A stretch of DNA of 64,000 bases from a virus (taxonomy: Duplodnaviria; Caudoviricetes): the IMG/VR virus record IMGVR_UViG_3300034375_009028. One strand, given 5' to 3'. Shown in pieces: positions 41,864 through 60,297 of the stretch. The stretch's first letter is position 1. The number at the start of each line of letters is the position of its first letter. The translations under genes were made by a program, and so were the position numbers. The notes under the pieces were generated by a model that had not been told where the DNA came from, did not search any database, and saw only the letters and a program-made list of their open reading frames with translations.

Positions 41864-43975
41864 TTATGTAGACGTGAATGACATGGCAGTAATTGACTGC
41901 CCAGAGTTCAATCTCCAACGAATCAAAATGCGATTGTTTGAGTCATTAGATGAAGATTCTGTACCAAATACACATGTAAATGTTCCGCCAGAACCATTCA
42001 TTGCACCACCCGAAGAACATCCTGGTTCTGCTGATGTTGGTACACCAGCACCTCTATATGCTTGGAACATGTCTGCCCAACCATTAGTACCAGATAAAGA
42101 TGAAGTCCATGTAGAATTGTCGGGCATACATACCCAACATCCTGCATACGATCCACTAACTGCTATTCTAAATTCAGATACCTGAGATCTTATAAATTGC
42201 AATTGGAAATATTGTGCTCCAGTTCTACCAGAAGAATAATCTGGTCCTACTGGTAACCAAGATCCACTAGAATAATCTGTTTGATCATGCCTCAAAGCAC
42301 CTCCTCTAACAATAGATTCATATGCTGCTGCAGTAGTAGAAGCACTAAATGATGTGTAAACTGGTGTGGGATTATCTGCACTAGATCCAGCGTTCACTCT
42401 AACAGCATTTCCAGAACCAGTTCCTAAACTATTAACTGCAATGTTATCTTCATCAATAATATTAGTCCTTGCAGTTGTTCCCATCATATTGACTGCAGGA
42501 GTTATAGTTGCTCTTACTGTATCTGACCCATAAGGAGTTGTTGCAGTGTAGGTAGAGAATCTAGTAGCATCAGTATTAACTGTTTGATGAAGATCTCTAG
42601 GTGTTTGAGAAACTAAACATGTTACGCCAGTACCTACACCATAATTCTGAACTGGTGGATTAACACCTCCATCAAAATTAGTATAACTTTTACTTCCACC
42701 ATTTTGAAATCCAGTAGTTTGACCACTAGATGTCAGAAAGGTATTCTGAGTGTACATATCACCCGTAGCATTCTCACAAGTTATTACATAAGTAAATGCA
42801 TTGCTAGAATCTTGTGTGTAATGTGGTACACCAGAAGAATAATTCAAAGTTGGTGAAGGTGGTGTTACTGGAGTAGTAACACTTAAAACAGGTGCAGTGA
42901 CTGTACTTCCATCCTCATACCAATATGCCTGCTGGGTAGTATATGCAAACTGTTGAATGAATGCTTTATTAAATCCATCAGGACATGGAGCATTAATCAA
43001 TCTGGCATCATAAACTTCATAAAATTCAGAGTTAATCCCTGGATTTCTTGATGAGAAGAATGCATCTTTATTGTTTGCAATTTGCAAGGAACCATAGATG
43101 CCATCATTAGATCCAATGGATAAATCTGTAGTACCAACTCCAACAGCATTTACAAATCCAGTAACTGTTCCAGCATCTCCTGGACCATATTCTGTAATAT
43201 AATTTGAAGTAACGGTATTATCAGTATTTCTACTATATTGTGTACCTGCTGATGGCGTCAAATCACCATCAGTATTGTTAGTAGGATTAAATCCTGAACA
43301 CAATCTTCCAACACCAGTCAACCCAGTCAAAGAGAATGGTTCATTTAAAATAGTTGCTGGTGGTTTTGGAACCAATTTCCCTAGAATAAAATTAATTTCA
43401 TTCACAGAGTCTTTGGTATAATCTCCAGTCTCAATTCCAACTGCTCCAGGTAAGAAACCAGCAGATGGGGTTCCAATAACTTGATCACCAAAAAATTCCG
43501 ATGCAGTTACAAATCCAGTAACTCTAACATCACCATCTACGGTTAATTTCTTATCTGCATCTGGATTGGTTAAACCAATACCAACACTCTTTGTTTGAGG
43601 AACGAATACAAAATCTTCATTAGAAGCAAATGATGTAACAACGCCTGTTGTTGCAGTTACAAATCCAATAAATTGTGGTGCAGTTCCTTGAGGATCTGAT
43701 AATTTATCGGTAATTAGATTTTTTAATTTTGATCCATCACCATAATATTCGGTTGCAGTAACTACTCCAACTACTTCAAGATCATTAGATACAACAATAT
43801 CTGAGGCGGTTAGGACCCCAGATATTGTCGCATCTCCTTGTACAGATAACTCCGCTGATGCATAGGTTGTGCCAATTCCGACCCGTCCAGTTACTTCAAG
43901 TACTGTTGAGTCGTCGGTATAAGAAGCTATACCTATTCTAAGATTTTTCTTGCGTTCGCTTAAAAATTTTGACAT
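41864..43975 (-). CDS. virion structural protein A1 (paralog of 57010..59028)
   Basis: Shared INFILGKLVPKPPAT and WTSSLSGTNGWADMFQAYRG blocks; late promoter AATAAATA at 44047-44040. Confidence 0.75.
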   Translation of the reverse strand: MSKFLSERKKNLRIGIASYTDDSTVLEVTGRVGIGTTYASAELSVQGDATISGVLTASDIVVSNDLEVVGVVTATEYYGDGSKLKNLITDKLSDPQGTAPQFIGFVTATTGVVTSFASNEDFVFVPQTKSVGIGLTNPDADKKLTVDGDVRVTGFVTASEFFGDQVIGTPSAGFLPGAVGIETGDYTKDSVNEINFILGKLVPKPPATILNEPFSLTGLTGVGRLCSGFNPTNNTDGDLTPSAGTQYSRNTDNTVTSNYITEYGPGDAGTVTGFVNAVGVGTTDLSIGSNDGIYGSLQIANNKDAFFSSRNPGINSEFYEVYDARLINAPCPDGFNKAFIQQFAYTTQQAYWYEDGSTVTAPVLSVTTPVTPPSPTLNYSSGVPHYTQDSSNAFTYVITCENATGDMYTQNTFLTSSGQTTGFQNGGSKSYTNFDGGVNPPVQNYGVGTGVTCLVSQTPRDLHQTVNTDATRFSTYTATTPYGSDTVRATITPAVNMMGTTARTNIIDEDNIAVNSLGTGSGNAVRVNAGSSADNPTPVYTSFSASTTAAAYESIVRGGALRHDQTDYSSGSWLPVGPDYSSGRTGAQYFQLQFIRSQVSEFRIAVSGSYAGCWVCMPDNSTWTSSLSGTNGWADMFQAYRGAGVPTSAEPGCSSGGAMNGSGGTFTCVFGTESSSNDSNNRILIRWRLNSGQSITAMSFTST

Positions 43976-44760: not shown

Positions 44761-47700
44761 TTACTCTCCTCCGAGTGCGAGAATGAATGGGGTTAGGGTG
44801 GAGAACAACGACTTAGAATATGACGTTCCAGAGATTGTTCCTGTGTTTTGGTTAATAATCAGTCCATCACCGATCTTGAAGTTACCTGACTGGTCAGTAC
44901 TGGTGAAGACCACCAGACCACCATTCAGATTCACGGTTTCATTTTCTGGGATTGTAACTCCTCCATTTTGTGGTAATGCTGTCTTGACATTGATTCCAGA
45001 ACCAATGTATTCAAATGCGTGTGATGAAGCAAGAACTCTGGACTGCTTATAGAAGTAAACATCCATTCCAACTCCAACATCATATGGAACCTGGGTGTCA
45101 AATGTGACGGTAGAGATTCCAGTTACCTTATCGGGTAATGTTGCCTTCGATACTGTGAAGTATGAAGGATAGATAGAAGGAACAATTCTTGCCTGGACAC
45201 CACCAGCTCCTTGTGGAGCAGCGATGCTTACTGCAGGAGGAACAACGAATCCTCTACCACTGGATACAACCTCAACAGAGATGACTGAACCGTTTTCAAC
45301 GGTTGCAATCGCCTGCGCGGGAACACCCCACTCAGTTGTTGGATCCGCAATTGTTACCTCAGGAGTCTCGGTATAACCGCTACCACCGTTGGTAACTTGG
45401 ATCTTATCAAGTTGATAATATAACTTATCAAAGACTGCTACCTGACCGTCAAATGGTCTCTGGGCATTGATTTGAACAGTACCACCAGAACCTGGAGTAT
45501 AGTAGTGAGCGAATGGTCCCTTACCAACGTTAGCGGTAAAGAATGTAGACGCTGCAGAGATTCTAACTGGTGATGGTTCACCCTTCAGGATCGCGTCAGT
45601 AGCAATTCCGATCAGGTTATCAATTGTATCCTGAACATTCTGACATGCCTCAGGAGTATTGTTTGAACCGTATGCTGCGTCATCAAGGAGATCGAAGTTC
45701 TTATTGTTGAGTTGGTTATTGATTGCCAACTGCATGTAGTCTGCAGATGCGCGGAACGCAGTTACAGTTTCAACTTCTTCACCAAGTAGACCCTTAGCAA
45801 GTGGTTCACCTTCTTCATCGAAGTAGTAATTAACCGCAGCGATTGTATTCGCGTTAGTTGAATTTTCTAGGTCATCGCGAACAGATGTTACAAAGTATCC
45901 GATATCTCTTCTGCACTTATTCTCTTGATCAAGGAACGATCCTGGATTATCTACGTAGTTGTCTAGAGTTGTAAGAGTACCAATTCCAATAGACTCGGTA
46001 ATGATTCCGATTCTGTTAGAGATGAAGTCTTGTACATCTTGACATGCATCAGGATTACCCGATCTTGTATAAACAACTGTGTAACCACCAGATCCGTAAA
46101 CTTCAGGTCCGAATGTTAGTGTTAGATCCTTCGCGTAGAGTTGGTTAGATACTGCCTTCGCCATTAGATCGCCAGCAGCGATAAATGCCGTTACAGATTC
46201 TGTCTTCTCTGCGTTTAGACCAGGAGTAATTGGTCTTCCGTTTCCATCGAAGTATTGTCTTGCGAAGTCCTTGGAGTAAGTGTTACCACCAACGAATACG
46301 TCAGTTGCAACAGCATCAACAAGGTATCCAATATCTCTTGCACACTTGTAACCACCTGGGGAAGAAGTAGTTCCGAGTCCGACCAGATCACCTGCGGTTG
46401 TTCCGAATCCAACAGTTTGTCCAAACTCACCGAGGTTGAGTGTGAAGTAACCTTCAGTAACTCCGATTGTTCCATCGTACAGGTCAGAGGTGTTACCAGC
46501 TCCGATGACTGTTGTGATGATTCCAACCAAGTTATCAATGTTACCTTGGACATCCTGACAGGTATTTTCGTTACCAGAAGCAGTGTAGGTAACGATTCCA
46601 ACGCCACCATAGTTTGCAGGACCAGTTGATAATGTCAGATCCTTACGATAGAGTTGGTTAGTGATAGCATCCTTCATGAACTCACCAGAGTATCTGAATG
46701 CTGTCAGTGAAGGTACTTCTTCACCTTCTAGACCACCTCTGATCTTGGTTCCGTCTGCGTAGTAATACTGCTCAGAGAATCCTCTGGAGTAGATATTACC
46801 GCCACTGAATACGTCAGTTGCAACTGCGTCGATGAGGAATCCAAGGTCTCTTGCACACTTGTAACCACCTGGGTTCTCAGTGCTTCCGATTCCACTTGCT
46901 CTATCAAAGATACCAGTGTTGTATGTGAGACCCGAGAGCGAAGCAGTTGTTCCAGCGCCAAGTGCGACTGTTACAATGCCAACCAGAGTATCAACGTTAT
47001 CCTGAACATCCTGACATGCGAGAGCGTTACCAGAGATGAATACGGTATGTGCAACTCCAGGTCCACCATAAGTAGCAGGACCAGAAGAGATTCCAACATC
47101 CTTTCTATAGAGTTGGTTAGTGAGAGCATCCTTCATGAACTCACCAGCACCGCCAAGACCAACAACAGTTGGAGCAACTTCTCCACCGTCGATGTAAACT
47201 GCTCCAGACTCATTGAAGTATTGGAGAGTAAACTCTTGAGAGTACTTGTTACCAGCGATGAATACGTCAGTTGAGACCGCATCAACGAAGAATCCAATGT
47301 CTCTTGCACACTTATAACCACCTGGGGTTGTAGCGCCAGCAGAGACGCTCTGATCAAAGATACCGCCAGTGATAGTTGGAAGACCAGTGGTATTTCCTGC
47401 AGCAACAGTTGCTGTAACAATGCCAGTCAATGTATCAACTTGGTCTTGAATGTCAAGACATGCGGTAGGATCAGTGTTAGTTACATCAGATCCAACTCCG
47501 AAGTATGTTCCACCTGCGGAGACGGTAAGATCAGAGTATGCTGCACCAACCAAGTTGTTGGTAAGTGCGTTCTTCATGTACTTAGCTGCTGCTTGGAAGA
47601 CGAAGATTGACTCATCTTCTTCACCAACTAATCCACCAGTGATTGGGTTACCAGCACCATCAAAGTATTGGAGAGTAAACTCTGTAGCATACTTGTTAGC

Positions 47701-50700
47701 ACCAATAAGTACGTCAAGGGAGATAGCATCGATGAAGAATCCTGTGTCTCTCTTACACTTATCTTCGACTGCACTGAAGTTGAATGCATTGAAGTTTGGA
47801 TTGTTTACAGCATCTGTAAATGCAAGTCCAACAATTACATCCTTATTCAGTTGGATCATTCTGTATGCATCATAGAATCTAGATCTTGCATTTTCTTCCA
47901 GATCACCTGGGAAGAAGAATGTATCATATGCATCATATCCTTGAGCGATAGAACCGATAGATCTATCAATTACTTCCTGTCTGTTCTGTTGAATCAGGCG
48001 GTAAGAATCGAAGTATCTATACTGCTCATCATCTCTTTCATCAAATCCCTTATTAACAACTGGGAGTGAAGTTGTTGTTCCAAGTCCGACAGCGACAGTT
48101 GCGATGCCTACAAGGTTCTCAATGAAGTTTTGTACATCTGCACAAGAATCAGGATTTCTGTTGTCTCCAGTTACCCAATCAGGCGAGAGTGTCAAATCTT
48201 GAGCATTAAGTTGGTTGGTAACTGCTGCTCTTGAGAGATCTCCGAATGCAGTGAATGCAGTTACAGATTCAGATTCTTCACCAAGGAGTCCGTTGGTGAT
48301 TGGGTTACCTGCTCCATCGAAGTAGGAGAGGGCGAATCCAACAATGTTCTTGTTACCACCAGTGTAAAGGTCTCCAGCAACCGCGTCAGCAAGGTAACCA
48401 AGGTCTCTAGCACACTTGAATCCACCTGGGGATGAAGTTGTTCCGATACCTGCCTGATTGAAGTAACCTTCATTCAGAGTTGGTAATCCAGTTGTAGCAC
48501 CTGCACCGATCGCGACTGTAACAATACCAACGATAGTGTCGATATTATCCTGAACATCTTGACATGCATTTGCATTTCCAGAAGGAAGAACTGCTTCTGA
48601 AGTACCACCACCAACGTAGGTAGCAGGACCAGAGGAGATTCCAACATCCTTACGGTTGAGTTGGTTAGTAACTGCCTTCTTAGCGAGATCTGCAACAAAG
48701 TCAAATGCAACGATAGAAGGAGCTTCTTCACCAAGTAAACCATTTGTAGTTGGGTTACCAGCACCATCGAAGTAGAACAGTGTGAAGTCTCTGGAGTAGC
48801 TGTTGCCACCTGTGAATACGTCGATCGCGAGCGCGTCAACAAGGTATCCAACGTCTCTAGCACACTTAACACCACCTGGAGTTGTATTACCAAATCCAGC
48901 AGTATTTTGAATAGTTAACTTAGTGAATGGATCAGTGTTGATAAGGAAGTTACCCTTAGTTTCAGCAGGAAGTGAAGTGGTTGTTCCAAGTCCAACTGCA
49001 ACGGTTGCAATACCTACAAGGTTCTCAATTGCTGCCTGTACATCAGTACAAGCCTCAGCATTACCTGAGAGGAGAACAGGAATATTACCGCCAGGACCAT
49101 TAAATGCTGCCTTACCAGAGGAGATTCCAACATCCTTAGCATTCAGTTGGTTGGTAATTGCCTGCTTCATGTATCCAGAGGCAGATTCGAAGGCAATCAG
49201 TGATTGTGCTTCTTCGCCTACAAGACCATTGGAGATTGGGTTACCAGCACCATCGAAGTAAAGGAGTGAGAAGTCTCTAGTATATGTGTTACCACCTGCG
49301 TGAATATCAGTTGAGACTGCATCAACAAGGAATCCGAGGTCTCTAGCACACTTGAATCCACCTGGGGATGAAGTTGTTCCGATACCTGCGGTTACATCAT
49401 AGTAACCAGAGTTGATTGATGTTGGAGCATCTGCAAATGTTGCGGTTGTTCCAAGTCCAACTACAGCAGTAACGATTCCAACCAGGGTATCAACGTTATC
49501 CTGAACATCTTGACAGGAGTTGATATTTCCAGAAGGAAGAACAGGGATGTCTCCACCTGCGCCACCATAAGTAGCAGCACCAGAAGAGATTCCAACATCC
49601 TTTCTATAGAGTTGGTTGGTCAATGCCTTCTTAATAAGTCCACCAGCAGCGATAAATGCACTGTTCGAAGGAGCTTCTTCGCCAGCAAGTCCACTTGTAA
49701 TCCATCCACGATATGCTGGTTCGTAAGACTTGACTGAATCAGTAGTTGCTCTTACAAATGTGTGAGCGGACTGAGGAAGATGCTTAACAGCACCTGCATC
49801 TGCACTTACGAATTGATGTGTTGTTTGTGGCTCGTGACGGATAGCGTTACCCTCTGCGTAAACAAAGGTGTGAACAGATCCAGCAGCGATTCCTGCATCA
49901 CCAACATTAATTGTAAATGTTCCTGTCTGCTTCTTAAGTCCATTAGCAGTTGCACTTACGAAGGTGTGAGCACCAGTGTAAGAAGATGCGCCAATGTTGA
50001 TCTTAAATGTATTTGGAGTTACTTCAGAGATTTCTAACCAACGACCAGATGCATAATCATATCCAGCGCGAGGATATGCTTTAGATACTGTATTATCATC
50101 AAGTACACATGTGAAGGTCAAAGAAGCATCGTCAAGTTTGATATAATCTCCTTTAGTGAATCCATGAGATGCAACTGTAAGTACTACATCACCAGATGCA
50201 GCATCATATGTTGCGTTAGTTACTGTGTGGGTAGACATTCCAACAGCAGTAATTGATGTAGATACTCCAGAGATTGGATCAGTTGAACGTGGATATGAAT
50301 GCTGAGTAGCATTACCATCTTGGTCGCAAGTAAAGACGAATGAATTATCCTCAAGGATAACTCCACGTCCAACTCCAAGACCATGCTGACCAACAGTAAC
50401 TGTTAAATCACCAGTCGCTGCATTATAATCAGCAGCAGTTGGAGTAAAGTACTTGTTAGGACCAGAAGCACCAACGTTAACTGTTAAAGTATCCGAAGTT
50501 ACTGAAGTAATCTTAACTGATCTACCTGCAAATGGATCAATTCCAGGACGTGGATAAGTCTTCTGTGCTTGGAATCCATCCATTGCACAACTAAATGTGA
50601 AGGAATTATCCTCGATGATAACACCCTCTCCAACACTCAGTGAGTGCTCACCAACAGTAACTGTAAAGTCACCTGTTGCTGGATCATAAGTAGCAGCAGT

Positions 50701-53700
50701 TGGGTTGAATGACCAGTCAGTACCAGAAGCACCAACATTAACTGTGAATGAAGTTGCGCTTGTTCCAGTGATTGTTAATCCATTGGTGTAAGCTAATTGA
50801 CCAATGGTTGGCAGAGAGTGCTCTGTCTTATTACCATCCATTGCACAAGTGAAGGTGAATCCTTCCTTGTCAAGATAGATAACATCATTGGTTTGGAGTG
50901 GGTGACCAGCTCCGATGATTGCAGTGAAGTCTCCAGTTGCTGGATCATAAGTAGCATCGGTTGGTTTCCAACCTGCAGCAGCCTTGAACTGGTTACGTAA
51001 GAATCCTGCAGCGTATGCATTACCACCAGTGAACAGGTCAGTGGAGATTGCATCAACAAGGAATCTAATGTCTCTACCACAAGTAAATCCACCTGGGGAG
51101 AATGTGCTGATTCCTAAAGATTGATTAAACTCTCCAAGATCAAGAGCACCTGTAGTAGTTGGAAGTTGACCTGTTGTTCCAAGACCTACAGCAACAGTGA
51201 CGATACCGACCAAGGAATCGATGTTATCTTGTACATCTAGACATGCATTTTCATTACCAGATCTTAGTACAGGAATGTTTGTTGAACCAACACCAAAGTA
51301 TGCAGTACCAGAAGAGATTCCAACATCCTTATTAAAGAGTTGGTTGGTGATTGCATCCTTCATGTACTCACCAGCAGCTTCAAACGCTACGATTGATGGA
51401 CCTTCCTCACCGAGGAGACCATTAATGATTGGAGCAGCGTTATCGAAGTATTGGAGTGCAAATCCATCAGAGTAGTAGTTACCTGCGGTAAAGAGGTCAA
51501 TCGAGATAGCATCGATAAAGAATCCAGTATCTCTAGCACACTTGAATCCACCTGGGGATGAAGTTGTTCCGAATCCAACAACTGGAGTACCAGCATCAGA
51601 AGCAACAAAGTATCCTTGGTTAATGGTTGCGGTTACATCACCAGCGGTTGCAGTAGTTCCGAGACCAACAACAGAAGTAACAATTCCTACGAGAGTGTCG
51701 ATTGTATCCTGAACATCTTGACATGCATCAGCATTACCAGATTGGTATACAGTATATGCAATACCAGGACCATTGTAAACAGCAGGACCAGAGGAGATTC
51801 CAAGGTTCTTTGTATACAGTTGGTTGGTGATCGCATCCTTCATGAACTCACCAGCGCCGATGAATCCATACAGTGACTGAAGCTCTTCTTCATAGAGACC
51901 TTCACCAATTGGTTGACCAGTTCCGTCATCAAAATACTCAAGGATAAACTCTCTAGAGTAAACGTTACCTCCAGTGAATACGTCAGTTGAGACAGAATCG
52001 ATAAAGTATCCAATGTCTCTTGCACACTTGAATCCACCAGGGGTGCTGGTAGTTCCAATTCCTGCTTGAGCAAAGTAACCTACGTTTCTTGTTGCTGCAA
52101 ACGAACCTGTTTGCTCATTAGCAATTGCCTCAGTAATGATTAATACCAGAGTTGCAATTGTGTCTTGAACATCTTGACATGCAGCAGAGTCGCTATTTGA
52201 AGAAGCGCCAGGTGCTGTAGTGATTCCAGCATCAGTATATGAGAGGTTATTTGTGATTGCCTCATACATCTTATCACGCGCTTGATTGAAGGCGTAGATA
52301 GATTGTACTTCCTCACCATCAATACCATTTGTAATCAGCTGATTATTTGCGAAGTATTGAAGTGTGAAGTCTTGTGAGTATGAGTTACCACCAGTTAAAA
52401 CGTCGAGTGATACTGCATCAACGAAGTATCCAAGGTCTCTCTTACACTTAGTCTCAGTTGAGAGAATTGCAGGATACTGGTTTCTTGTTGCAAGCCAAGC
52501 AGCGTTAACAATATCAGTCTTATTCTTTTGAATCAGACGATATGAATCATAATATCTGGATCTTGCATTAGTTACATCGTCACCAGGGAATACCCAATCA
52601 GTTGGATATTGATCATAGTTAACAACAATGTTACCAATTGATCTATCAATCAGTTCTCTTCTATTTGTCTGGATCAGACGATAGGAGTCAAAGAATCTTG
52701 ATCTTGCGTTGGTGTACTCATCACCTGGGAATGCAAATGTCTTACCGACACCAGCACTGACGTGATAATCAAGTGCAATTGCTGCCAGGGACTTATCAAC
52801 AATTTCCTGTCTGTTCTGCTGAATCAGACGATATGAATCATAGAATCTTGATCTACCTGTTGTCTGGTCATCACCAGGGAAGTAGAAGTCTGGGTGATCA
52901 ATAGCAATAGCACCGAGAGACTTATCAATGATCTCCTGCTTGTTCTGTTGAATCAGACGATAAGAATCAGCGAATCTTGAACGTGCATTGGTTTCAAGAT
53001 CTCCTGGGAAGTAGAACTGATCATAGTTTAATGCTACAGAAGCAAGAGACTTATCAACGATTTCTTGCTTGTTCTGCTGGATTAAACGATAAGAATCATA
53101 GAATCTTGATCTTGATGTGGTCTCAGTATCTCCTGGGAAGAGGAAATAATCGAACATATCATACTTGAAGGAGATTCCTGCAAGTGCCTTATCAACAATT
53201 TCCTGCTTGTTATCGAGAATCAAACGATATGAATCAAAGAATCTTGATCTTTCGTTTGTTTCTGGATCATCTGGGAAGAAGAAGTCTGGGTGATACAGAG
53301 AAATAGTAGCAAGAGACTTATCAATAAGTTCGTCTCTATTAGCATTAACAAGATTATATGAATCTTTAAATCTATTTCTGCTAGAATCTGGGAAGTAGAA
53401 GTCAGGATTCTCTAATGAGATAGAAGCAAGTGATCTATCAATGATTTCCTGCTTGTTCTGTTGGATCAGACGATAAGAATCAAAGAATCTTGATCTTGCA
53501 TTTGTCTGAAGATCATTAGGGAAGTAGAAGTCTGGATGATTTACAGAGATCTCAGCAAGTGATCTATCAACAATTTCCTGCTTGTTCTGTTGAATCAGAC
53601 GATATGAATCGTAGAATCTTGAGGAAGCATTAGTTTGTGCTTCACCTGGGAAGTAGAAATCAGGGTGCTTGAATGCAATAGAAGCAAGAGACTTATCAAG

Positions 53701-54852
53701 AATCTCAGTTCTATTTGCTTCAATCGACTCACTAGCATCTACATATCTACCAGGAGCAACTGTTCTTGTCTCAAAAATGTATCCATAGTTACCAGTTGGA
53801 TACTCAAGTTGAGTAGCTCCACCATCAGAATCACATGTGAATCCAAGACCAGCGATGGTAACTCCCATACCAACGCTTAACTTATGCTCTCTATCGAGAA
53901 CAAATGTACCAATACCTGTTCTAAAGTCGTACTTAGCATCAACGACATTCATTACAGGAGCGTTTGCATCAACTTTAATCTTAAAGACAGATGCATCAAC
54001 TCCAGCTGCAGTGGTTACAATACCAGTATACTTGAGAGGTCCAACGCCATCAGCGACAAGACCGAAGTTACCGAATGATGAGTTAGAGTTGGTAAGGTCG
54101 CAAGCACCACCTGACTGACAAAGGATTGCGGTATCTGAACAGATGGTGAACATGGACACCAACTGAGCGAATGCTTCGTTGAAGATCTTAGCGCCTAAAC
54201 CACCTGGGTTAATCTGGGTATAGGAGTCAAGAACCATGGACTTAATAGGTCCAATAGCATATTCACCATCAATATTCAGACCAATTGTGCCTGGAATAAA
54301 GTTGGTGCAGTTTTGAATATATGGCGACTGATCAATATAAGGAACAACTTCTGGGTTAAATGTAACAATAGCACCATTAGACTTTTGCTCAGGTCCAATG
54401 AATGACATTTCTGCAATGTAGCATCCATTGTCTAACCAGAACAAGTCTCCTTGATTTTTTGGAGTAACCGTAACTTCACGAAGTGAGTCTCCAACGACTG
54501 ATACGTTATCGGGAAGTACGATTGGGTTATCTTCTAGATAAACTCCAGCACTAATTTTAATAACTGTTCCTGGGACAGACTCTGCGACGGCAGCTTTAAT
54601 GGTTCTTTTTGCGTCTCCGAGTTTCTTACCTGTGTTGTTGTCGTTACCATCTTGCGTTACATATAGGACATTTATTACCGTTGCTCCAGCACCGACTCTA
54701 ACGATGTCCGTTCCAATGCCAGGACGTTCTCTAGCAATGTAAATCTCGCCATCATTAGTGTTGATGGCGATTTCACCTAATGGAAGGTCAGAAACTGACG
54801 GTATTTTGTTTGGTACAGAAGATCTTTTAAATCTAATCTTAGGATTTGCCAT
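44761..54852 (-). CDS. giant (3363 aa) tail-fibre-like protein: gp37-like N-terminus, beta-helix, 12 nested phycobiliprotein-like domains
   Basis: IRFKRSS..P..S.LPLGEIAINTND resembles the T4 gp37 N-terminus; pectin-lyase-like start (LYVTQDG...IKISAGVY); 12 CxRD repeats; TATAAATA upstream. Confidence 0.8.
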   Translation of the reverse strand: MANPKIRFKRSSVPNKIPSVSDLPLGEIAINTNDGEIYIARERPGIGTDIVRVGAGATVINVLYVTQDGNDNNTGKKLGDAKRTIKAAVAESVPGTVIKISAGVYLEDNPIVLPDNVSVVGDSLREVTVTPKNQGDLFWLDNGCYIAEMSFIGPEQKSNGAIVTFNPEVVPYIDQSPYIQNCTNFIPGTIGLNIDGEYAIGPIKSMVLDSYTQINPGGLGAKIFNEAFAQLVSMFTICSDTAILCQSGGACDLTNSNSSFGNFGLVADGVGPLKYTGIVTTAAGVDASVFKIKVDANAPVMNVVDAKYDFRTGIGTFVLDREHKLSVGMGVTIAGLGFTCDSDGGATQLEYPTGNYGYIFETRTVAPGRYVDASESIEANRTEILDKSLASIAFKHPDFYFPGEAQTNASSRFYDSYRLIQQNKQEIVDRSLAEISVNHPDFYFPNDLQTNARSRFFDSYRLIQQNKQEIIDRSLASISLENPDFYFPDSSRNRFKDSYNLVNANRDELIDKSLATISLYHPDFFFPDDPETNERSRFFDSYRLILDNKQEIVDKALAGISFKYDMFDYFLFPGDTETTSRSRFYDSYRLIQQNKQEIVDKSLASVALNYDQFYFPGDLETNARSRFADSYRLIQQNKQEIIDKSLGAIAIDHPDFYFPGDDQTTGRSRFYDSYRLIQQNRQEIVDKSLAAIALDYHVSAGVGKTFAFPGDEYTNARSRFFDSYRLIQTNRRELIDRSIGNIVVNYDQYPTDWVFPGDDVTNARSRYYDSYRLIQKNKTDIVNAAWLATRNQYPAILSTETKCKRDLGYFVDAVSLDVLTGGNSYSQDFTLQYFANNQLITNGIDGEEVQSIYAFNQARDKMYEAITNNLSYTDAGITTAPGASSNSDSAACQDVQDTIATLVLIITEAIANEQTGSFAATRNVGYFAQAGIGTTSTPGGFKCARDIGYFIDSVSTDVFTGGNVYSREFILEYFDDGTGQPIGEGLYEEELQSLYGFIGAGEFMKDAITNQLYTKNLGISSGPAVYNGPGIAYTVYQSGNADACQDVQDTIDTLVGIVTSVVGLGTTATAGDVTATINQGYFVASDAGTPVVGFGTTSSPGGFKCARDTGFFIDAISIDLFTAGNYYSDGFALQYFDNAAPIINGLLGEEGPSIVAFEAAGEYMKDAITNQLFNKDVGISSGTAYFGVGSTNIPVLRSGNENACLDVQDNIDSLVGIVTVAVGLGTTGQLPTTTGALDLGEFNQSLGISTFSPGGFTCGRDIRFLVDAISTDLFTGGNAYAAGFLRNQFKAAAGWKPTDATYDPATGDFTAIIGAGHPLQTNDVIYLDKEGFTFTCAMDGNKTEHSLPTIGQLAYTNGLTITGTSATSFTVNVGASGTDWSFNPTAATYDPATGDFTVTVGEHSLSVGEGVIIEDNSFTFSCAMDGFQAQKTYPRPGIDPFAGRSVKITSVTSDTLTVNVGASGPNKYFTPTAADYNAATGDLTVTVGQHGLGVGRGVILEDNSFVFTCDQDGNATQHSYPRSTDPISGVSTSITAVGMSTHTVTNATYDAASGDVVLTVASHGFTKGDYIKLDDASLTFTCVLDDNTVSKAYPRAGYDYASGRWLEISEVTPNTFKINIGASSYTGAHTFVSATANGLKKQTGTFTINVGDAGIAAGSVHTFVYAEGNAIRHEPQTTHQFVSADAGAVKHLPQSAHTFVRATTDSVKSYEPAYRGWITSGLAGEEAPSNSAFIAAGGLIKKALTNQLYRKDVGISSGAATYGGAGGDIPVLPSGNINSCQDVQDNVDTLVGIVTAVVGLGTTATFADAPTSINSGYYDVTAGIGTTSSPGGFKCARDLGFLVDAVSTDIHAGGNTYTRDFSLLYFDGAGNPISNGLVGEEAQSLIAFESASGYMKQAITNQLNAKDVGISSGKAAFNGPGGNIPVLLSGNAEACTDVQAAIENLVGIATVAVGLGTTTSLPAETKGNFLINTDPFTKLTIQNTAGFGNTTPGGVKCARDVGYLVDALAIDVFTGGNSYSRDFTLFYFDGAGNPTTNGLLGEEAPSIVAFDFVADLAKKAVTNQLNRKDVGISSGPATYVGGGTSEAVLPSGNANACQDVQDNIDTIVGIVTVAIGAGATTGLPTLNEGYFNQAGIGTTSSPGGFKCARDLGYLADAVAGDLYTGGNKNIVGFALSYFDGAGNPITNGLLGEESESVTAFTAFGDLSRAAVTNQLNAQDLTLSPDWVTGDNRNPDSCADVQNFIENLVGIATVAVGLGTTTSLPVVNKGFDERDDEQYRYFDSYRLIQQNRQEVIDRSIGSIAQGYDAYDTFFFPGDLEENARSRFYDAYRMIQLNKDVIVGLAFTDAVNNPNFNAFNFSAVEDKCKRDTGFFIDAISLDVLIGANKYATEFTLQYFDGAGNPITGGLVGEEDESIFVFQAAAKYMKNALTNNLVGAAYSDLTVSAGGTYFGVGSDVTNTDPTACLDIQDQVDTLTGIVTATVAAGNTTGLPTITGGIFDQSVSAGATTPGGYKCARDIGFFVDAVSTDVFIAGNKYSQEFTLQYFNESGAVYIDGGEVAPTVVGLGGAGEFMKDALTNQLYRKDVGISSGPATYGGPGVAHTVFISGNALACQDVQDNVDTLVGIVTVALGAGTTASLSGLTYNTGIFDRASGIGSTENPGGYKCARDLGFLIDAVATDVFSGGNIYSRGFSEQYYYADGTKIRGGLEGEEVPSLTAFRYSGEFMKDAITNQLYRKDLTLSTGPANYGGVGIVTYTASGNENTCQDVQGNIDNLVGIITTVIGAGNTSDLYDGTIGVTEGYFTLNLGEFGQTVGFGTTAGDLVGLGTTSSPGGYKCARDIGYLVDAVATDVFVGGNTYSKDFARQYFDGNGRPITPGLNAEKTESVTAFIAAGDLMAKAVSNQLYAKDLTLTFGPEVYGSGGYTVVYTRSGNPDACQDVQDFISNRIGIITESIGIGTLTTLDNYVDNPGSFLDQENKCRRDIGYFVTSVRDDLENSTNANTIAAVNYYFDEEGEPLAKGLLGEEVETVTAFRASADYMQLAINNQLNNKNFDLLDDAAYGSNNTPEACQNVQDTIDNLIGIATDAILKGEPSPVRISAASTFFTANVGKGPFAHYYTPGSGGTVQINAQRPFDGQVAVFDKLYYQLDKIQVTNGGSGYTETPEVTIADPTTEWGVPAQAIATVENGSVISVEVVSSGRGFVVPPAVSIAAPQGAGGVQARIVPSIYPSYFTVSKATLPDKVTGISTVTFDTQVPYDVGVGMDVYFYKQSRVLASSHAFEYIGSGINVKTALPQNGGVTIPENETVNLNGGLVVFTSTDQSGNFKIGDGLIINQNTGTISGTSYSKSLFSTLTPFILALGGE
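45580..53748 (-). repeat. phycobiliprotein-like repeats (12 helix-B segments and 12 helix E-H segments)
   Basis: CxRD Cys codons at 52444, 52024, 51538, 51079, 49348, 48862, 48412, 47755, 47308, 46855, 46342, 45913; each followed about 90-100 aa later by (A/S/T)C..VQ. Confidence 0.7.
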
Positions 54853-57009: not shown

Positions 57010-59028
57010 TTAGGTATTTCTAAATGACAAAGTGTTGATCTGATTTCCAGAATTCAATTTAAATCTAACTAGAATTCTATTGTTAGCATCATTTGACGAT
57101 GACTCAGTTCCAAATACTGCAGTAAAGGTTCCTGTAGATCCTGTCATATTACCAGCAAATGCTGCTCCAGGAAGAGCAGTTGTTGGAATACCAGAACCAC
57201 GGTATGCTTGGAACATATCTGCCCAACCATTAGTACCAGATAAAGATGAAGTCCATGCAGGATTATCAGGCATACAAATCCAACATCCTGTATAAGAACC
57301 ATTAACTACAATTTCAAACTCAGAGACATTAGATCTTATAAACTGCATTTGAAAATATTGTGATCCTGTTCTACCTACAGAGTAATCTGGTCCAACTGGA
57401 AGATGACCTGTGGAATAATTTGTTTGGTCATGCTTCAAGTCTCCACCAACAACAACAGCTTCGTAGGTTGGCATAGTATTAGAAGCAACCCAAGTGGTAT
57501 AAACAGGAGTTGGATTATCCCCAGCAGATCCAGCATTTACTCTAACTGCATTTCCAGATCCAGTTCCCAAAGTTTGAACTAAAATATTATCTTCATCAAT
57601 CACATTTGTTCTAGCAGTTGTACCCATAATATTTACAATTTGTGGTATAGTCGCACGTACAACATCAGATCCATAAGGAGTTGATGCAGTATAGTTTGAA
57701 AACTTTTGGTTATCTGCAGTTACTCTAATATGAAGATCTCTAGGTGTCTGTGAAACTGTACAAGTAACTCCAACACCAACTCCAAAATTTCTTACTGGTG
57801 GATTAACTCCATTAGTAAAATCTGTATAAGATTTATTACCACCATTCTGGAATCCTGTAGTTTGTCCAGAAGAAGTTAAGAATGTATTGTTAGAATACAT
57901 ATCACCAGTTGCATTCTGGCAAATGATCTCATAAAAGAATGCATTGTTAGATGCTTGTGTATAATGAGGAATTCCAGAAGAATAATTAAATGTTGGTGAA
58001 GGTGGAGTTATTGGAGTTGTTGAGATTAGGACTGGTGCAGATACTGCACTCGGATCTTCATAGTACAAATATTTTTCAGACTCATAGATATTTGTATCTA
58101 CCTGATGTTGAATATATGCCATATTAAAGCCATTGGGTGAATTGGCATTTAATATTCTAGAATCATAAACCTCATAAAAATCCGATGCAATACCAGTATT
58201 TCTAGATGAGAAGAATGCATCTTTATCATTTAAGATTTCTAATGCACCATAAACTCCATCATCACTAGTAGCATCGTTAGTAATACTATTGTCTGGATTG
58301 ATGACATCGTTACTTGTCATCATTCTTTGCCCCTCAACACTGAAGTTGATCATTGCATTTACATTGCCTTGATCTCCAGGACCATACTCAGTTAACCAAG
58401 TAGAGGTAACTGAGTTGCTGGTATTTCTTGGGTATTGTGTTCCAGCAGAAGGAGAAAAAACACCAACAGTATTATTTGTAAACGCAAATCCAGAACAAAG
58501 TCTTGCAACTCCAAGTCCAACCAGATCCAAAGGTGCATTTAAAACTGTTGCTGGTGGTTTTGGAACTAGTTTACCAAGAATAAAGTTTATATCATTGATA
58601 GAATTTTTGGTAAAATCGTCAATCTCAATTTCAACTGCTCCAGGTTTAAATCCACCATCAGGTTCTCCAAACCTCAATGGACCATAGTATTCTCCAGCAG
58701 AAACAAAATTGTTAACATCTACATAGTCCCTAAAAATTGTAGGACCATTTACATCTAAATCTCTTTCTGGAGATGCTGTGGTATTACCAATAGATACCTT
58801 TCCCCTAAAGCTACTAACTCCAGAGACAACAGTATCATTTGATTTGAGAGTAGTATCAACATTTAAAACTCCAGAAACTAAACCATCTCCCTGAACGTGG
58901 AAGTCTGACTTAGCTTCTGAAGTTTTTATACCGACATTACCAGTTACCTGAAGAGCAGTTTCATTGTCAGTATATGAGGCAACACCTACTCTTAGTTTTC
59001 TGTTTAGTTGACTTAAGTATTTTGCCAT
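57010..59028 (-). CDS. virion structural protein A2 (paralog of 41864..43975)
   Basis: Colinear with A1; late promoter AATAAATA at 59078-59071. Confidence 0.75.
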   Translation of the reverse strand: MAKYLSQLNRKLRVGVASYTDNETALQVTGNVGIKTSEAKSDFHVQGDGLVSGVLNVDTTLKSNDTVVSGVSSFRGKVSIGNTTASPERDLDVNGPTIFRDYVDVNNFVSAGEYYGPLRFGEPDGGFKPGAVEIEIDDFTKNSINDINFILGKLVPKPPATVLNAPLDLVGLGVARLCSGFAFTNNTVGVFSPSAGTQYPRNTSNSVTSTWLTEYGPGDQGNVNAMINFSVEGQRMMTSNDVINPDNSITNDATSDDGVYGALEILNDKDAFFSSRNTGIASDFYEVYDSRILNANSPNGFNMAYIQHQVDTNIYESEKYLYYEDPSAVSAPVLISTTPITPPSPTFNYSSGIPHYTQASNNAFFYEIICQNATGDMYSNNTFLTSSGQTTGFQNGGNKSYTDFTNGVNPPVRNFGVGVGVTCTVSQTPRDLHIRVTADNQKFSNYTASTPYGSDVVRATIPQIVNIMGTTARTNVIDEDNILVQTLGTGSGNAVRVNAGSAGDNPTPVYTTWVASNTMPTYEAVVVGGDLKHDQTNYSTGHLPVGPDYSVGRTGSQYFQMQFIRSNVSEFEIVVNGSYTGCWICMPDNPAWTSSLSGTNGWADMFQAYRGSGIPTTALPGAAFAGNMTGSTGTFTAVFGTESSSNDANNRILVRFKLNSGNQINTLSFRNT

Positions 59029-59077: not shown

Positions 59078-59605
59078 TTATGTCTTACTCTGCTTGTCAA
59101 ATTCAAACATTCCATGTTCAGATCCCCAAACCATTTTTTTAGTCTCTGGATCATAACCTCTATCAATGACTTTATACTTAGTTTTTGTTAATGCAGACAT
59201 AGTAAATAAGAAAGACTTTTTACCATTTCTCTCTACAATACAATCACATCCCATAATTCTACCAACATACTGATTGTTTTCTTTTATAAAAATACAATCA
59301 CAATTTTCATTTAATTCTAATTGATCCTCAGTAATTTGATCTAGATTTTTAAATTCAAGATGTTTTTTTCCATCTTTTACTTTATAACTTGAAACAATAA
59401 TTCTATCGTTTACTTCTTTAAAGTCTAAAACAAATTGCCTATAAGGAGGTTCTCCTCTAACAGTATATTTTTGTTCTCCATAAATCATACCATTATCTAA
59501 GAGAACATGACGTAAACTAATTTGGGAGTATTGAGATGGATAAGAGAATGCTTGCCTTCTATTATTAAAAGATCCAAGTAACCATTCTTTAAACTCTTCA
59601 ATCAT
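59078..59605 (-). CDS. cpeT: T-type phycobiliprotein lyase (CpcT/CpeT family)
   Basis: G.FNN..QA...P, YGEQ.Y, PYRQ, C.C..C, DRGYD...MVWGS.HG.F.F signature. Confidence 0.88.
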   Translation of the reverse strand: MIEEFKEWLLGSFNNRRQAFSYPSQYSQISLRHVLLDNGMIYGEQKYTVRGEPPYRQFVLDFKEVNDRIIVSSYKVKDGKKHLEFKNLDQITEDQLELNENCDCIFIKENNQYVGRIMGCDCIVERNGKKSFLFTMSALTKTKYKVIDRGYDPETKKMVWGSEHGMFEFDKQSKT

Positions 59606-60297
59606 TCGGTACTTCCTCTCCTTGTACGACGTGTTAATGTAGAAAATAAAACTTTACCTATGGCAGAAATCAAATTACCTTCAATTTCATTAAACACATT
59701 CATATTTAATTTGAATGCATAATTTGCCTCTTCAATTATATCATCAATTTCATGTTGGTCAAAGGGCAATTCATCTAACACATTTCTATAATTAGTTTTA
59801 AATTCTTTCTCGTCTGGAATGTCAGTAAAAAGATAAAAGTTCATTCCTGCATCATCAACCTTCAATGCAGTTTGAGCAATACTTTTTAAGAGTTGTCCTC
59901 CAGACAAATCTCCAATATACCTAGTGTAATGATGTGCAATTAAAAGATCCTGATTAGACTTAGAGACTTCTTTAATTCTTGCAACATATTCTTTACAAGA
60001 CTTTGTTTGTGTAATTAAATCTCTCCAATCAATACCAAGATAATATTGCAAGTCTTTTTCTAAAGACTTTTTGCGGAACAATTCAGGATAATAAATGTTA
60101 CGCAAAATGGTATCACTTTTATGATTCTCAAACTCCTCTTCCATTGCAGAGTATATAAAATATAAATCTGAGAGAAGTCTAATATAAGATTTTTTTTCAA
60201 CAACCCCTTTTAAAAAGCAGGTAATAAATCCTGTGTTCTCTGCCATAGTATGGGACTTTTTAGTTCCCTCTCTAATTTGTTTAGATAGATCTGTCAT
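59602..60297 (-). CDS. ho1: heme oxygenase (biliverdin IXa-forming)
   Basis: IREGTKKSHTMAEN (proximal His), HHYTRYIGDLSGGQ, EEANYAF.LN. Confidence 0.95.
   Translation of the reverse strand: MTDLSKQIREGTKKSHTMAENTGFITCFLKGVVEKKSYIRLLSDLYFIYSAMEEEFENHKSDTILRNIYYPELFRKKSLEKDLQYYLGIDWRDLITQTKSCKEYVARIKEVSKSNQDLLIAHHYTRYIGDLSGGQLLKSIAQTALKVDDAGMNFYLFTDIPDEKEFKTNYRNVLDELPFDQHEIDDIIEEANYAFKLNMNVFNEIEGNLISAIGKVLFSTLTRRTRRGSTE

What the first reader, a model, noticed from the sequence alone, without database searches (positions are those of the whole stretch)
45580..53748. Balanced-parenthesis (Russian-doll) architecture predicts a there-and-back, branched fibre
Seen: the order of segments is B x10, EH x7, B x2, EH x5, giving 12 openers and 12 closers that nest exactly (depth 10, 3, 5, 0). 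Only B10-EH1 and B12-EH8 are contiguous, and these are the only ones with E(T/D)KCKRD and no FYFPG/PGG(F/Y)K linker. The most divergent copies pair as predicted (B1 with EH12, B4 with EH7). Inference: each domain is inserted into the B-E loop of the previous one, so the chain runs out through B helices and returns through E-H helices. Domain 3 hosts two child chains, which implies a branch point.
Basis: inference. Interest (0 to 1): 0.75.

Follow-up and report, generated by a model that had tools for sequence, protein, structure and literature searches.

The report
Self-nested phycobiliprotein-like domains in cyanophage fibre
A 3,363-residue tail-fibre-type protein of an uncultured T4-like cyanophage is most likely built from 12 pigment-protein-like helical domains inserted one inside another up to ten deep, so the chain runs out to the tips and back and forks once, which is deeper than any domain nesting I found in the literature.

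Summary
One minus-strand ORF (window 44761-54852, 3363 aa) holds 12 "B" units and 12 "EH" units in the order B10 EH7 B2 EH5.

B plus EH together make one phycobiliprotein-like globin domain. B corresponds to helices A and B, EH to helices E to H. The split falls in the B-E loop.

In 117 of 121 homologues the B and EH counts are equal and the order is a balanced-parenthesis word, across 35 architectures. A score trained only on unsplit B-E units prefers the last-in-first-out partners in 54 of 55 proteins. B9/B11 and their predicted partners EH2/EH9 are mutual nearest paralogues.

AlphaFold2 folds B8-B10+EH1-EH3 as one rigid body (pTM 0.89). The unsplit tip domain matches phycobiliproteins (Z 15-17).

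I could not read 3-D contacts. A deletion control was uninformative, and the trans-docking test of the fork gave only weak support.

The closest precedent is the six-level self-nested Si3 arm of cyanobacterial RNA polymerase. This scan has noted nested beta-barrels and tandem phycobiliprotein-like domains in other cyanophage DNA, but not nested helical ones.

Verdict: nested tree topology very likely; forked shape implied by topology but its geometry is unknown.

The parts
44761..54852 (-). Whole gene: 3363-aa tail-fibre-type virion protein (P0001)
   Evidence: ORF. PHROG 4527 and 5342 'tail fiber' with E=0 and 1.8e-258. 261 homologues, including T4-like cyanophage proteins such as S-PM2d088.
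53749..54852 (-). N-terminal part (aa 1-368): fibre-type N-terminus, then a beta unit 'opening' (aa ~285-366) just before B1
   Evidence: aa 285-355 are homologous to the beta units of the EH4 insert (BLASTP E=2e-8).
52465..53748 (-). First run of openers: B1-B10 (aa 369-796), each made of helices A and B of a phycobiliprotein-like domain
   Evidence: Motif and HMM hits. AF2 shows two helices per unit. Profile alignment to C-phycocyanin alpha residues 39-63.
48070..52455 (-). First run of closers: EH1-EH7 (aa 800-2261), helices E to H with KC.RD and a second Cys; they close B10 back to B4
   Evidence: covariation.
49687..50979 (-). ~430-aa beta insert in the loop after helix E of EH4 (domain 7): four related beta units whose last strands follow at the end
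   Evidence: Sequence. The insert is absent from the ~2920-aa homologues P0007-P0021, which keep the same B/EH word.
47776..48018 (-). Second run of openers: B11 and B12 (aa 2279-2359), the start of the short branch
   Evidence: B11 and B9 are mutual nearest paralogues at 70%.
45571..47766 (-). Second run of closers: EH8-EH12 (aa 2363-3094); they close B12, B11, B3, B2 and B1
   Evidence: EH9 and EH2 are mutual nearest paralogues at 65%. B1-EH12 ranks 1 of 12.
44764..45570 (-). C-terminal part (aa 3095-3363): a possible closing strand of the N-terminal beta unit, then a conserved fibre C-terminus (...FILALGGE)
   Evidence: PHROG 17885 'tail fiber' on aa 3102-3361. Weak similarity of aa ~3096-3120 to the closing strands of the beta units (E~0.1). 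The C-terminal motif is shared by many homologues.

Best explanation
The protein is a virion fibre whose shaft is a rooted tree of 12 phycobiliprotein-like globin domains made by recursive self-insertion. Each domain is encoded in two pieces. The B unit carries helices A and B. The EH unit carries helices E to H, with the Cys-x-Arg-Asp motif and a second invariant Cys. The next domain is inserted into the B-E loop, between the F.FPG and PGG.KC half-motifs. The chain therefore runs outward through B1 to B10, makes an unsplit tip domain (B10-EH1), and returns through EH1 to EH7, completing domains 9 back to 4. It then makes a second, two-domain side arm (B11, B12-EH8, EH9) and closes domains 3, 2 and 1 with EH10 to EH12. 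Domain 3 hosts two child chains, so the topology forks: a trunk of three domains, a long arm of seven (which carries a beta insert on domain 7) and a short arm of two. The N- and C-terminal modules end up together at the base. Every junction between neighbouring domains is crossed by two strands of chain, which should make a stiff rod (inferred). Growth and shrinkage by whole '()' or '(())' blocks explains the many balanced architectures in relatives. What is shown: the grammar, the partner-specific covariation, the fold of the unsplit domain, and a confident rigid AF2 model of three nested levels. What is inferred: the physical re-union of each split pair, the shape of the fork, and a role in adsorption.
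For: (1) Grammar. With HMMs for B and E, 117 of 121 homologues have equal counts and a balanced word, across 35 distinct words. These range from x22 through (((()))) to depth 10. Of the 105 proteins with nesting, 101 are balanced. All 24 distinct equal-count nested words are balanced, against 3.1 expected under shuffling. One exception, P0029, is a truncated ORF. In an independent set, 37 of 48 cluster representatives are balanced, and at least six of the exceptions look like fragments.
(2) Covariation. For 315 non-contiguous pairs, the mutual information between B and E columns is 180.8 under nested pairing. It is 113.9+-2.3 for within-protein shuffles, 144.5 and 138.5 for shifts of one, and 129.8 for reversed order. 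The coupling map of split pairs correlates with that of unsplit pairs at r=0.246, against 0.036+-0.037 for controls. Both maps share the ladder B14-E13, B11-E16, B7-E20 (z = 10.8, 22.4 and 18.7).
(3) Held-out test. A score trained only on unsplit units prefers the parenthesis partners in 54 of 55 proteins. The one failure is P0022, the protein with an unbalanced word. For the P0001 group z=3.95; B1-EH12 ranks 1 and B4-EH7 ranks 2 of 12.
(4) Paralogy. B9/B11 and their predicted partners EH2/EH9 are mutual nearest paralogues.
(5) Fold. AF2 of B8-B10+EH1-EH3 gives pLDDT 86.4 and pTM 0.89. B10+EH1 matches phycobiliproteins at Z 15.3-16.9, with rmsd about 2.0-2.6 A over about 131-139 residues for most of the top matches. 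A profile aligns the B unit to C-phycocyanin alpha helices A and B, and KC.RD to the Cys84 motif (E=9e-4). Pfam PF00502 scores 34.9 bits against a 22.2 cut-off.
(6) Junction motifs across the family. PGG precedes 202 of 485 split E units but only 13 of 446 unsplit ones.
(7) Trans docking of B3-B4 onto EH7..EH10: ipSAE 0.43 (runs 0.46, 0.04, 0.43), best control 0.00. This is weak support. The mark was reached by 58 of 80 solved complexes and 2 of 110 mismatches. At 0.60 or under, however, it was reached by only 7 of those 80 and by both mismatches. Runs agree in at least 77% of contacts, and partner pLDDT is at least 55.
Against: No coordinates or error maps were available, so no B(i)-EH(partner) contact was seen directly. 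No structural alignment spanned a split pair such as B9+EH2. Covariation could come from common descent of each domain as a unit rather than from contact. That still supports nesting as history, but less so as present structure. Middle units (B2, B3, B5-B9, B11) are too alike to be assigned individually. Three full-length homologues are off by one (P0022, P0044, P0061). The oligomeric state is unknown.
Confidence: 0.8

Rival explanations
1. Same last-in-first-out pairing, but between chains. The fibre is a domain-swapped antiparallel dimer or higher oligomer in which B units of one chain complete EH units of another.
For: B3-B4 given as a separate chain is placed on EH7..EH10 with some confidence: score 0.43, best control 0.00, weak support. 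The mark was reached by 58 of 80 solved complexes and 2 of 110 mismatches; at 0.60 or under, by only 7 of those 80 and by both mismatches. Runs agree in at least 77% of contacts and partner pLDDT is at least 55. Phage fibres are usually oligomers (general knowledge). The grammar and the covariation cannot tell cis from trans.
Against: The tip units are unsplit, with a median of only 7 residues between B and E, which forces pairing within the chain at the tips. AF2 folds three nested levels as a single chain with pTM 0.89. Forked words are hard to satisfy in a simple antiparallel swap.
Confidence: 0.1
2. The B runs form an independent helical stalk or solenoid, and the EH units are self-sufficient truncated four-helix beads on a string. 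Equal counts would then be a by-product of how the repeats were duplicated.
For: An orphan B8 keeps high AF2 confidence without EH3. In the model, the second helix of B9 lies against the neighbouring domain, where helix X of phycobiliproteins lies, so B units also make contacts outside their own domain.
Against: Equal counts and balanced order hold in 117 of 121 homologues across 35 architectures. Partner-specific covariation is lost on a shift of one unit. A score learned from unsplit units picks the parenthesis partners. By profile and by fold, the B unit corresponds to helices A and B of the same domain as EH.
Confidence: 0.06
3. The nesting is real as evolutionary history, but the present protein is partly disordered or only loosely paired. 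The fork does not give a branched rod; for example, the short arm may fold back on the trunk.
For: The geometry of the fork was not seen. Support for docking at the fork is weak (score 0.43, best control 0.00; the mark was reached by 58 of 80 solved complexes and 2 of 110 mismatches, but at 0.60 or under by only 7 of those 80 and by both mismatches; runs agree in at least 77% of contacts, partner pLDDT at least 55). Swapping B11-EH10 with B3-EH9 scores as well as the nested assignment (39.3 against 38.1).
Against: Strong conservation of every unit across 21 homologues of 67-99% identity. High pLDDT and pTM for three nested levels. Forks recur in most nested architectures.
Confidence: 0.2

Closest known systems
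Si3 insertion of cyanobacterial RNA polymerase beta' (RpoC2): recursively nested sandwich-barrel hybrid motifs
   Same: One domain family is inserted into copies of itself, closed last-in-first-out, with bifurcating nodes where one host carries several guests, and builds an elongated arm. A survey of 2.7 million classified domains singles it out as its example of complex nesting, at six levels (PMC13114784).
   Different: Si3 uses small beta barrels in an enzyme. Here the unit is an all-helical globin-type domain split in its B-E loop, nested ten deep, or eleven to twelve if the beta host and beta insert are counted, in a phage virion fibre.
Phycobiliproteins (PF00502: phycocyanin, phycoerythrin, allophycocyanin; ApcE bilin-binding domain)
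   Same: Same fold for the unsplit unit: Z 15.3-16.9, and ApcE 4xxi_A at Z 14.6 with rmsd 1.8 A over 115 residues. The profile aligns helices A and B and the Cys84-x-Arg-Asp motif. From memory, ApcE also carries a loop insertion between helices B and E, the same site that hosts the guests here.
   Different: No X-Y hairpin of its own and a very short B-E loop when unsplit. Two invariant cysteines. Sequence similarity is marginal: the best single PDB hit has E=9e-4 with a profile. The units are covalently concatenated and nested in a virion protein rather than being free alpha/beta subunits in rings. Pigment binding is untested.
Self-nested beta-barrel arrays in giant cyanophage fibre and baseplate proteins
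   Same: Same phage group, the same kind of giant virion protein, the same last-in-first-out grammar, and depth up to ten. The beta insert in EH4 and the N/C-terminal beta unit of this protein look like that kind.
   Different: Those concern a beta barrel whose last strand is delayed. Here the split unit is a six-helix globin domain, with about 40 aa on one side of the split and about 120-130 aa on the other. These are unpublished AI notes that I did not verify.
There-and-back fibre tips such as the needle domain of T4 gp37 (from memory)
   Same: The chain runs to the distal tip and returns, so the tip is formed by the middle of the sequence.
   Different: gp37 is an intertwined trimer of extended strands, not a stack of split globular domains, and it has no recursion or fork.

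Membership tests
Recursive (self-nested) domain insertion architecture | The host domain's sequence is interrupted by one or more complete guest domains | tested here: met
   The B and EH halves of one phycobiliprotein-like domain are separated by 0 to about 2570 residues that themselves parse into complete B/EH sets.
Recursive (self-nested) domain insertion architecture | Guest and host belong to the same family, and closure is last-in-first-out across relatives | tested here: met
   117 of 121 homologues give balanced words, with 35 distinct words. In an independent set, 37 of 48 are balanced.
Recursive (self-nested) domain insertion architecture | The split halves re-unite in three dimensions into one folded domain | tested here: inconclusive
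   AF2 gives pTM 0.89 for three levels, but no coordinates were readable. The deletion control was uninformative. Partner-specific covariation with a helix-ladder pattern supports re-union.
Phycobiliprotein family (Pfam PF00502) | Significant match to the family profile | tested here: met
   PF00502 has E=1.9e-8 and 34.9 bits against a gathering score of 22.2 for the whole protein. No single stretch passes on its own; the best is aa 768-834. A profile of unsplit units against the PDB finds C-phycocyanin alpha at E=9e-4.
Phycobiliprotein family (Pfam PF00502) | Globin-like fold with helices A, B, E, F', G and H | tested here: met
   AF2 model residues 97-255 (B10+EH1) give Z 15.3-16.9 against 50 phycobiliprotein entries, most with rmsd about 2.0-2.6 A over about 131-139 residues. 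These stand well above globin sensors at Z 8-11.
Phycobiliprotein family (Pfam PF00502) | Cys84-x-Arg86-Asp87 chromophore-site motif at the aligned position | tested here: met
   KC(K/A)RD.GY aligns with KCARDIGYY of C-phycocyanin alpha. C, R and D are invariant in all three units of 76 aligned segments.
Phycobiliprotein family (Pfam PF00502) | N-terminal X-Y helical hairpin and assembly into alpha-beta rings | tested here: inconclusive
   No X-Y hairpin of its own is encoded. In the model, the second helix of the preceding B unit lies where helix X lies (alignments start at model residues 69-71). Ring assembly was not tested.
Phycobiliprotein family (Pfam PF00502) | Covalently bound bilin | not testable with these tools
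   Needs spectroscopy or mass spectrometry of the protein. cpeT and heme oxygenase genes lie about 4 kb upstream, which is only a lead.
Phage tail fibre proteins (PHROG 4527 / 5342 / 17885) | Profile match and position in a fibre gene module | tested here: met
   PHROG 4527 has E=0, 5342 has 1.8e-258 and 17885 has 1.5e-168. Neighbouring genes match a tail-fibre assembly protein family (phrog_3304) and a fibre C-terminus, and a 4745-aa ORF lies next door.
Phage tail fibre proteins (PHROG 4527 / 5342 / 17885) | Presence in the virion, attachment to the baseplate, receptor binding | not tested
   Indirect only: the homologue S-PM2d088 is still called a large hypothetical protein and gained mutations during co-culture with its host (PMC9910659).

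The most novel reading that the evidence does not exclude
A single polypeptide folds as a ten-level, once-forked tree of split phycobiliprotein-like domains. That tree itself sits inside a split beta domain and carries a four-level beta nest, giving 11 to 12 levels in all. On this reading a whole family of ocean cyanophage fibres evolves by a parenthesis grammar: fibre length, side arms and tips change by inserting or deleting whole balanced blocks. The tip domains, which lie in the middle of the sequence, rather than the C-terminus, would then be what meets the host. With every domain keeping both phycobiliprotein-type cysteines, and with cpeT and heme oxygenase next door, the shaft could even be pigmented.
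Probability: 0.35. Interest if true: 0.92.

Novelty: new variant of a known kind. Interest (0 to 1): 0.8.

Why it matters
It would be the deepest domain-in-domain build I could find: a 2026 survey of 2.7 million domains highlights six levels. It would also be the first made of an all-helical globin-type domain.

It shows how a stiff, branched rod can be made from one chain with both ends at the base. This changes where one should look for receptor-binding parts in these abundant ocean phages: the tips lie in the middle of the sequence.

It gives a simple rule, a balanced B/EH word, for annotating and checking hundreds of giant 'hypothetical' cyanophage proteins and for spotting mis-assemblies.

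It poses a sharp folding problem, because the first helix pair must wait about 2,600 residues for its partner.

It links a virion protein to the host's light-harvesting protein family.

Tried and rejected
(1) Reading contacts from the AF2 models. Coordinates and error maps are not exposed to the script box.

(2) Looking for a structural alignment that spans a split pair (B9+EH2 or B8+EH3). All 50 rows of both VIA searches landed on the unsplit B10+EH1. This says nothing about the split pairs.

(3) AF2 deletion control, with EH3 removed so that B8 is orphaned. B8 confidence fell only from about 95 to about 91 and pTM stayed at 0.89. The control does not discriminate.

(4) Mantel and divergence correlations within P0001. 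Nested pairing gives r=0.625 (P=0.007), but sequential pairing gives 0.544. Divergence correlations are 0.65 against 0.66. These do not discriminate either.

(5) My first B HMM missed divergent B units and made 62 proteins look unbalanced. Inspecting the unmatched E units showed contiguous divergent B helices, and a second HMM fixed this. Re-iterating the HMMs on the wider set made them drift and lowered the balanced count to 103 of 121, so I discarded that version.

(6) Remote tandem-type relatives (27-33% identity). My B model is too insensitive there, so their apparent excess of E units is not evidence.

(7) A single-sequence PDB search gave only marginal phycocyanin hits (E 0.1-0.6) and a spurious designed-repeat hit.

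(8) Literature searches for phycobiliprotein-like or nested domains in cyanophage fibres found nothing on point.

(9) No whole genome is held for this window.
Full report
WHAT IS THERE. The finding lies inside one ORF on the minus strand, window 44761..54852, 3363 aa (P0001). Residue n maps to window base 54852-3(n-1). PHROG profiles call it a tail fibre: 4527 at E=0, 5342 at 1.8e-258, and 17885 on the C-terminus. It has 261 homologues in metagenomes. tblastn hits 420 phage records, all marine T4-like cyanophages (Synechococcus/Prochlorococcus phages S-WAM2, Syn1, S-RIM44, S-PM2 and others), none above 60% identity. Neighbouring genes match a tail-fibre assembly protein family, a fibre C-terminus and two paralogous ~700-aa proteins, and a 4745-aa ORF lies next door. 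The window therefore comes from the fibre module of an uncultured cyanomyovirus.

THE OBSERVATION. Twelve B units of about 43 aa (RF.DSYRLIQ.N+.EI.D+SLA.., mostly ending F.FPG) start at aa 369, 412, 455, 494, 537, 583, 626, 669, 719 and 766, then at 2279 and 2325. Twelve EH units of about 120-130 aa each hold KC.RD and a second invariant Cys (C.DVQ). They follow as seven (first Cys at 803 to 2147) and five (2366 to 2980). The order B10 EH7 B2 EH5 gives depths 10, 3, 5, 0, as stated. Only B10-EH1 and B12-EH8 are contiguous.

WHAT THE UNIT IS. Pfam PF00502 (phycobilisome protein) scores 34.9 bits against a cut-off of 22.2. AlphaFold2 on aa 663-1230 (B8 B9 B10 EH1 EH2 EH3) used an alignment of 76 equivalent segments and gave mean pLDDT 86.4 and pTM 0.89. 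In that model B10+EH1 (residues 97-255) matches phycobiliproteins. In an unbiased search of 48,161 chains the matches were Z 15.5 for phycoerythrin, Z 14.6 for the ApcE bilin domain (rmsd 1.8 A over 115 residues) and Z 14.3 for allophycocyanin. In a second look, 50 phycobiliprotein entries gave Z 15.3-16.9, most with rmsd about 2.0-2.6 A over about 131-139 residues. Other globins follow at Z 8-11. A profile of 49 unsplit units aligns the B unit with helices A and B of C-phycocyanin alpha (residues 39-63), its 'YP' with 'FPY', and KC.RD.GY with the Cys84 motif (E=9e-4). So B corresponds to helices A and B, EH to helices E to H, and the place where the sequence is interrupted is the B-E loop.

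I built HMMs for B and for the E, G and H parts and scanned 121 homologues. A first B model missed divergent copies. Looking at the unmatched E units showed a contiguous, divergent B helix in front of most of them. With a second B model, 117 of 121 proteins have equal numbers of B and E and a balanced-parenthesis order, in 35 distinct words. Examples are x15-22 (purely tandem, unsplit units), ((()))(()), (((()))) and ((()(())())), up to the depth-10 word of this protein. P0001 still shows 12 and 12, so the model does not simply hit linkers. Of 105 proteins with nesting, 101 are balanced. All 24 distinct equal-count nested words are balanced, where shuffling their letters predicts 3.1. Of the four exceptions, P0029 is a truncated ORF, and P0022, P0044 and P0061 are off by one. 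In a second, independent set (an exhaustive search of 1.84 billion cluster representatives with B10-EH1), 37 of 48 new representatives at 37% identity or more are balanced, and at least six of the 11 exceptions look like ORF fragments. More remote tandem-type proteins could not be judged because my B model fails there. Across the family, PGG precedes 202 of 485 split E units but 13 of 446 unsplit ones, and an FPG-like motif follows 346 of 485 split B units but 45 of 446 unsplit ones.

TEST 2, DO THE PREDICTED PARTNERS BELONG TOGETHER? For 315 non-contiguous pairs from 61 non-redundant proteins, summed mutual information between B and E columns is 180.8 for parenthesis partners. It is 113.9+-2.3 when partners are shuffled within each protein, 144.5 and 138.5 when shifted by one domain, and 129.8 in reversed order. 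B against helix H gives 142.6 against 87.9+-1.7. The coupling map of split pairs correlates with that of unsplit pairs, where pairing is not in doubt, at r=0.246 against 0.036+-0.037. Both maps share the top couplings B14-E13 (Lys/Arg with Asp/Glu), B11-E16 (Gln-Ser against Leu/Val/Ile-Ala) and B7-E20 (Tyr-Phe against Ala-Arg/Lys). This ladder has the spacing of two antiparallel helices. It stands 10.8 to 22.4 SD above shuffles and falls towards shuffle level on a shift of one. A log-odds score trained only on unsplit units and applied to split ones prefers the parenthesis assignment in 54 of 55 proteins (mean z 2.0). The single failure is P0022, the protein whose word is unbalanced and whose parse must therefore be out of register. 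Averaged over the 21 proteins with this architecture, the nested assignment scores z=3.95 (P=6e-5), near the optimum, while sequential pairing is below random. B1-EH12 ranks 1 and B4-EH7 ranks 2 of 12 after centring. Exchanging the partners of B3 and B4 costs 15 units. The middle units are too alike to place individually. Finally, B9 and B11 are mutual nearest B units (70%), and their predicted partners EH2 and EH9 are mutual nearest EH units (65%). This is what one expects if the short arm arose by copying a '()' block.

TEST 3, STRUCTURE PREDICTION OF THE PAIRING. The pTM of 0.89 means AlphaFold places all three nested levels as one rigid body, but I could not read contacts. No structural alignment spanned a split pair. 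Deleting EH3 left its predicted partner B8 almost as confident (blocks 84/91/90 against 80/95/94, pTM 0.89), so this control does not discriminate. It suggests that B units also lean on the next inner domain. Consistent with that, many alignments place the second helix of B9 where phycobiliprotein helix X lies. For the fork, B3-B4 given as a separate chain with EH7-B11-B12-EH8-EH9-EH10 scored ipSAE 0.43 (runs 0.46, 0.04, 0.43) against 0.00 for the best control. The tool calls this weak support. The mark was reached by 58 of 80 solved complexes and 2 of 110 mismatches, but at 0.60 or under by only 7 of those 80 and by both mismatches. Runs agree in at least 77% of contacts and partner pLDDT is at least 55.

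HOW IT MOST LIKELY WORKS. The shaft is a tree of split domains: trunk 1-3, long arm 4-10 ending in the unsplit tip B10-EH1, and short arm 11-12 ending in B12-EH8. Both arms sit in the B-E loop of domain 3. Domain 7 carries a beta insert after helix E. This insert is missing from the ~2920-aa relatives that otherwise keep the same word. The stretch just before B1 (aa 285-355) is homologous to the opening halves of those beta units (E=2e-8), and the stretch after EH12 weakly resembles their closing strands, so the whole helical tree probably sits in a split beta unit. The N- and C-terminal modules would then lie together at the base, and the distal ends would be encoded mid-sequence. Two chain crossings at every junction should stiffen the rod. 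Folding would have to proceed from the tips inward to the base, perhaps with the neighbouring assembly protein. These last points are inference.

COMPARISON AND NOVELTY. Recursive self-insertion is known. A 2026 survey of 2.7 million domains singles out the six-level, bifurcating Si3 arm of cyanobacterial RpoC2 as its example of complex nesting (PMC13114784). Earlier notes of this scan report nested beta barrels (to depth ten) and tandem phycobiliprotein-like domains in other cyanophage proteins. I found no note or paper on nested helical phycobiliprotein-like domains. The cultured-phage homologue S-PM2d088 is still described as an exceptionally large hypothetical protein that picks up mutations during co-culture with its host (PMC9910659). 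I therefore class this as a new variant of a known kind.

VERDICT. The nested reading is supported mainly by family-wide grammar and partner-specific covariation. The fork follows from the topology, and its physical shape is open.

Noticed in passing
window 59078-60297, minus strand: cpeT (PF06206, E=6e-38) and heme oxygenase (PF01126, E=1.4e-76) lie about 4.2 kb upstream, on the same strand as the fibre gene, whose 12 domains all keep the Cys-x-Arg-Asp motif. This could be coincidence within an auxiliary-gene island, or it could be a lead that the fibre carries bilin.
   Followed up: partly
P0001 aa 892, 1044, 1204, 1780, 1935, 2097, 2237, 2465, 2613, 2765, 2937, 3070 (window ~45643-52179): Every EH unit has a second invariant Cys immediately before helix H (C.DVQ). 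From memory, this is about where beta-subunit Cys153/155, the site served by T-type lyases, lies. Alternatively, the two cysteines could form a disulfide. I did not align it residue by residue.
   Followed up: no
window 49687-50979 (aa ~1292-1722): The insert in EH4 holds four related beta units (..YD.ATGD.T...H.L..G....F.F.C..DG....YP..). Four H(T/Q)FV.A-type closing strands are stacked at its end, so it looks like a second nest of a different domain. Homologues P0007-P0021 lack it but keep the same B/EH word.
   Followed up: partly
window 53755-54000 and 45478-45567 (aa 285-366 and ~3096-3125): The segment before B1 is homologous to the opening half of those beta units (E=2e-8). The segment after EH12 weakly resembles their closing strand (E~0.1). 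The whole helical array therefore probably sits inside a split beta unit.
   Followed up: partly
homologue P0022 (2483 aa, metagenome): It is a full-length protein with 9 B but 10 EH units (B7 EH5 B2 EH5). It is the only one of 55 proteins in which the compatibility score does not favour the parsed partners (z=-0.82). It is either a collapsed repeat in the assembly or a genuine orphan EH.
   Followed up: partly
homologues such as P0064, P0099, P0037 (words like BBeg[BBBB egh egh egh ..]h eh): In other family members, child chains seem to be inserted between the G and H parts of a host domain. The G-H loop would then be a second host site besides the B-E loop.
   Followed up: no
homologues P0052-P0057, P0023, P0024, P0026, P0060: A sister group of 3900-5200-aa proteins carries 15-22 unsplit B-E units of about 110 aa in plain tandem. 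This is the un-nested form of the same domain.
   Followed up: partly
window 41864-43975 and 57010-59028, minus strand: Two paralogous ~700-aa genes (both phrog_8578) lie on either side of the fibre gene, one downstream and one further upstream. A 113-aa gene at 55984-56325 matches a tail-fibre assembly protein family (phrog_3304).
   Followed up: no
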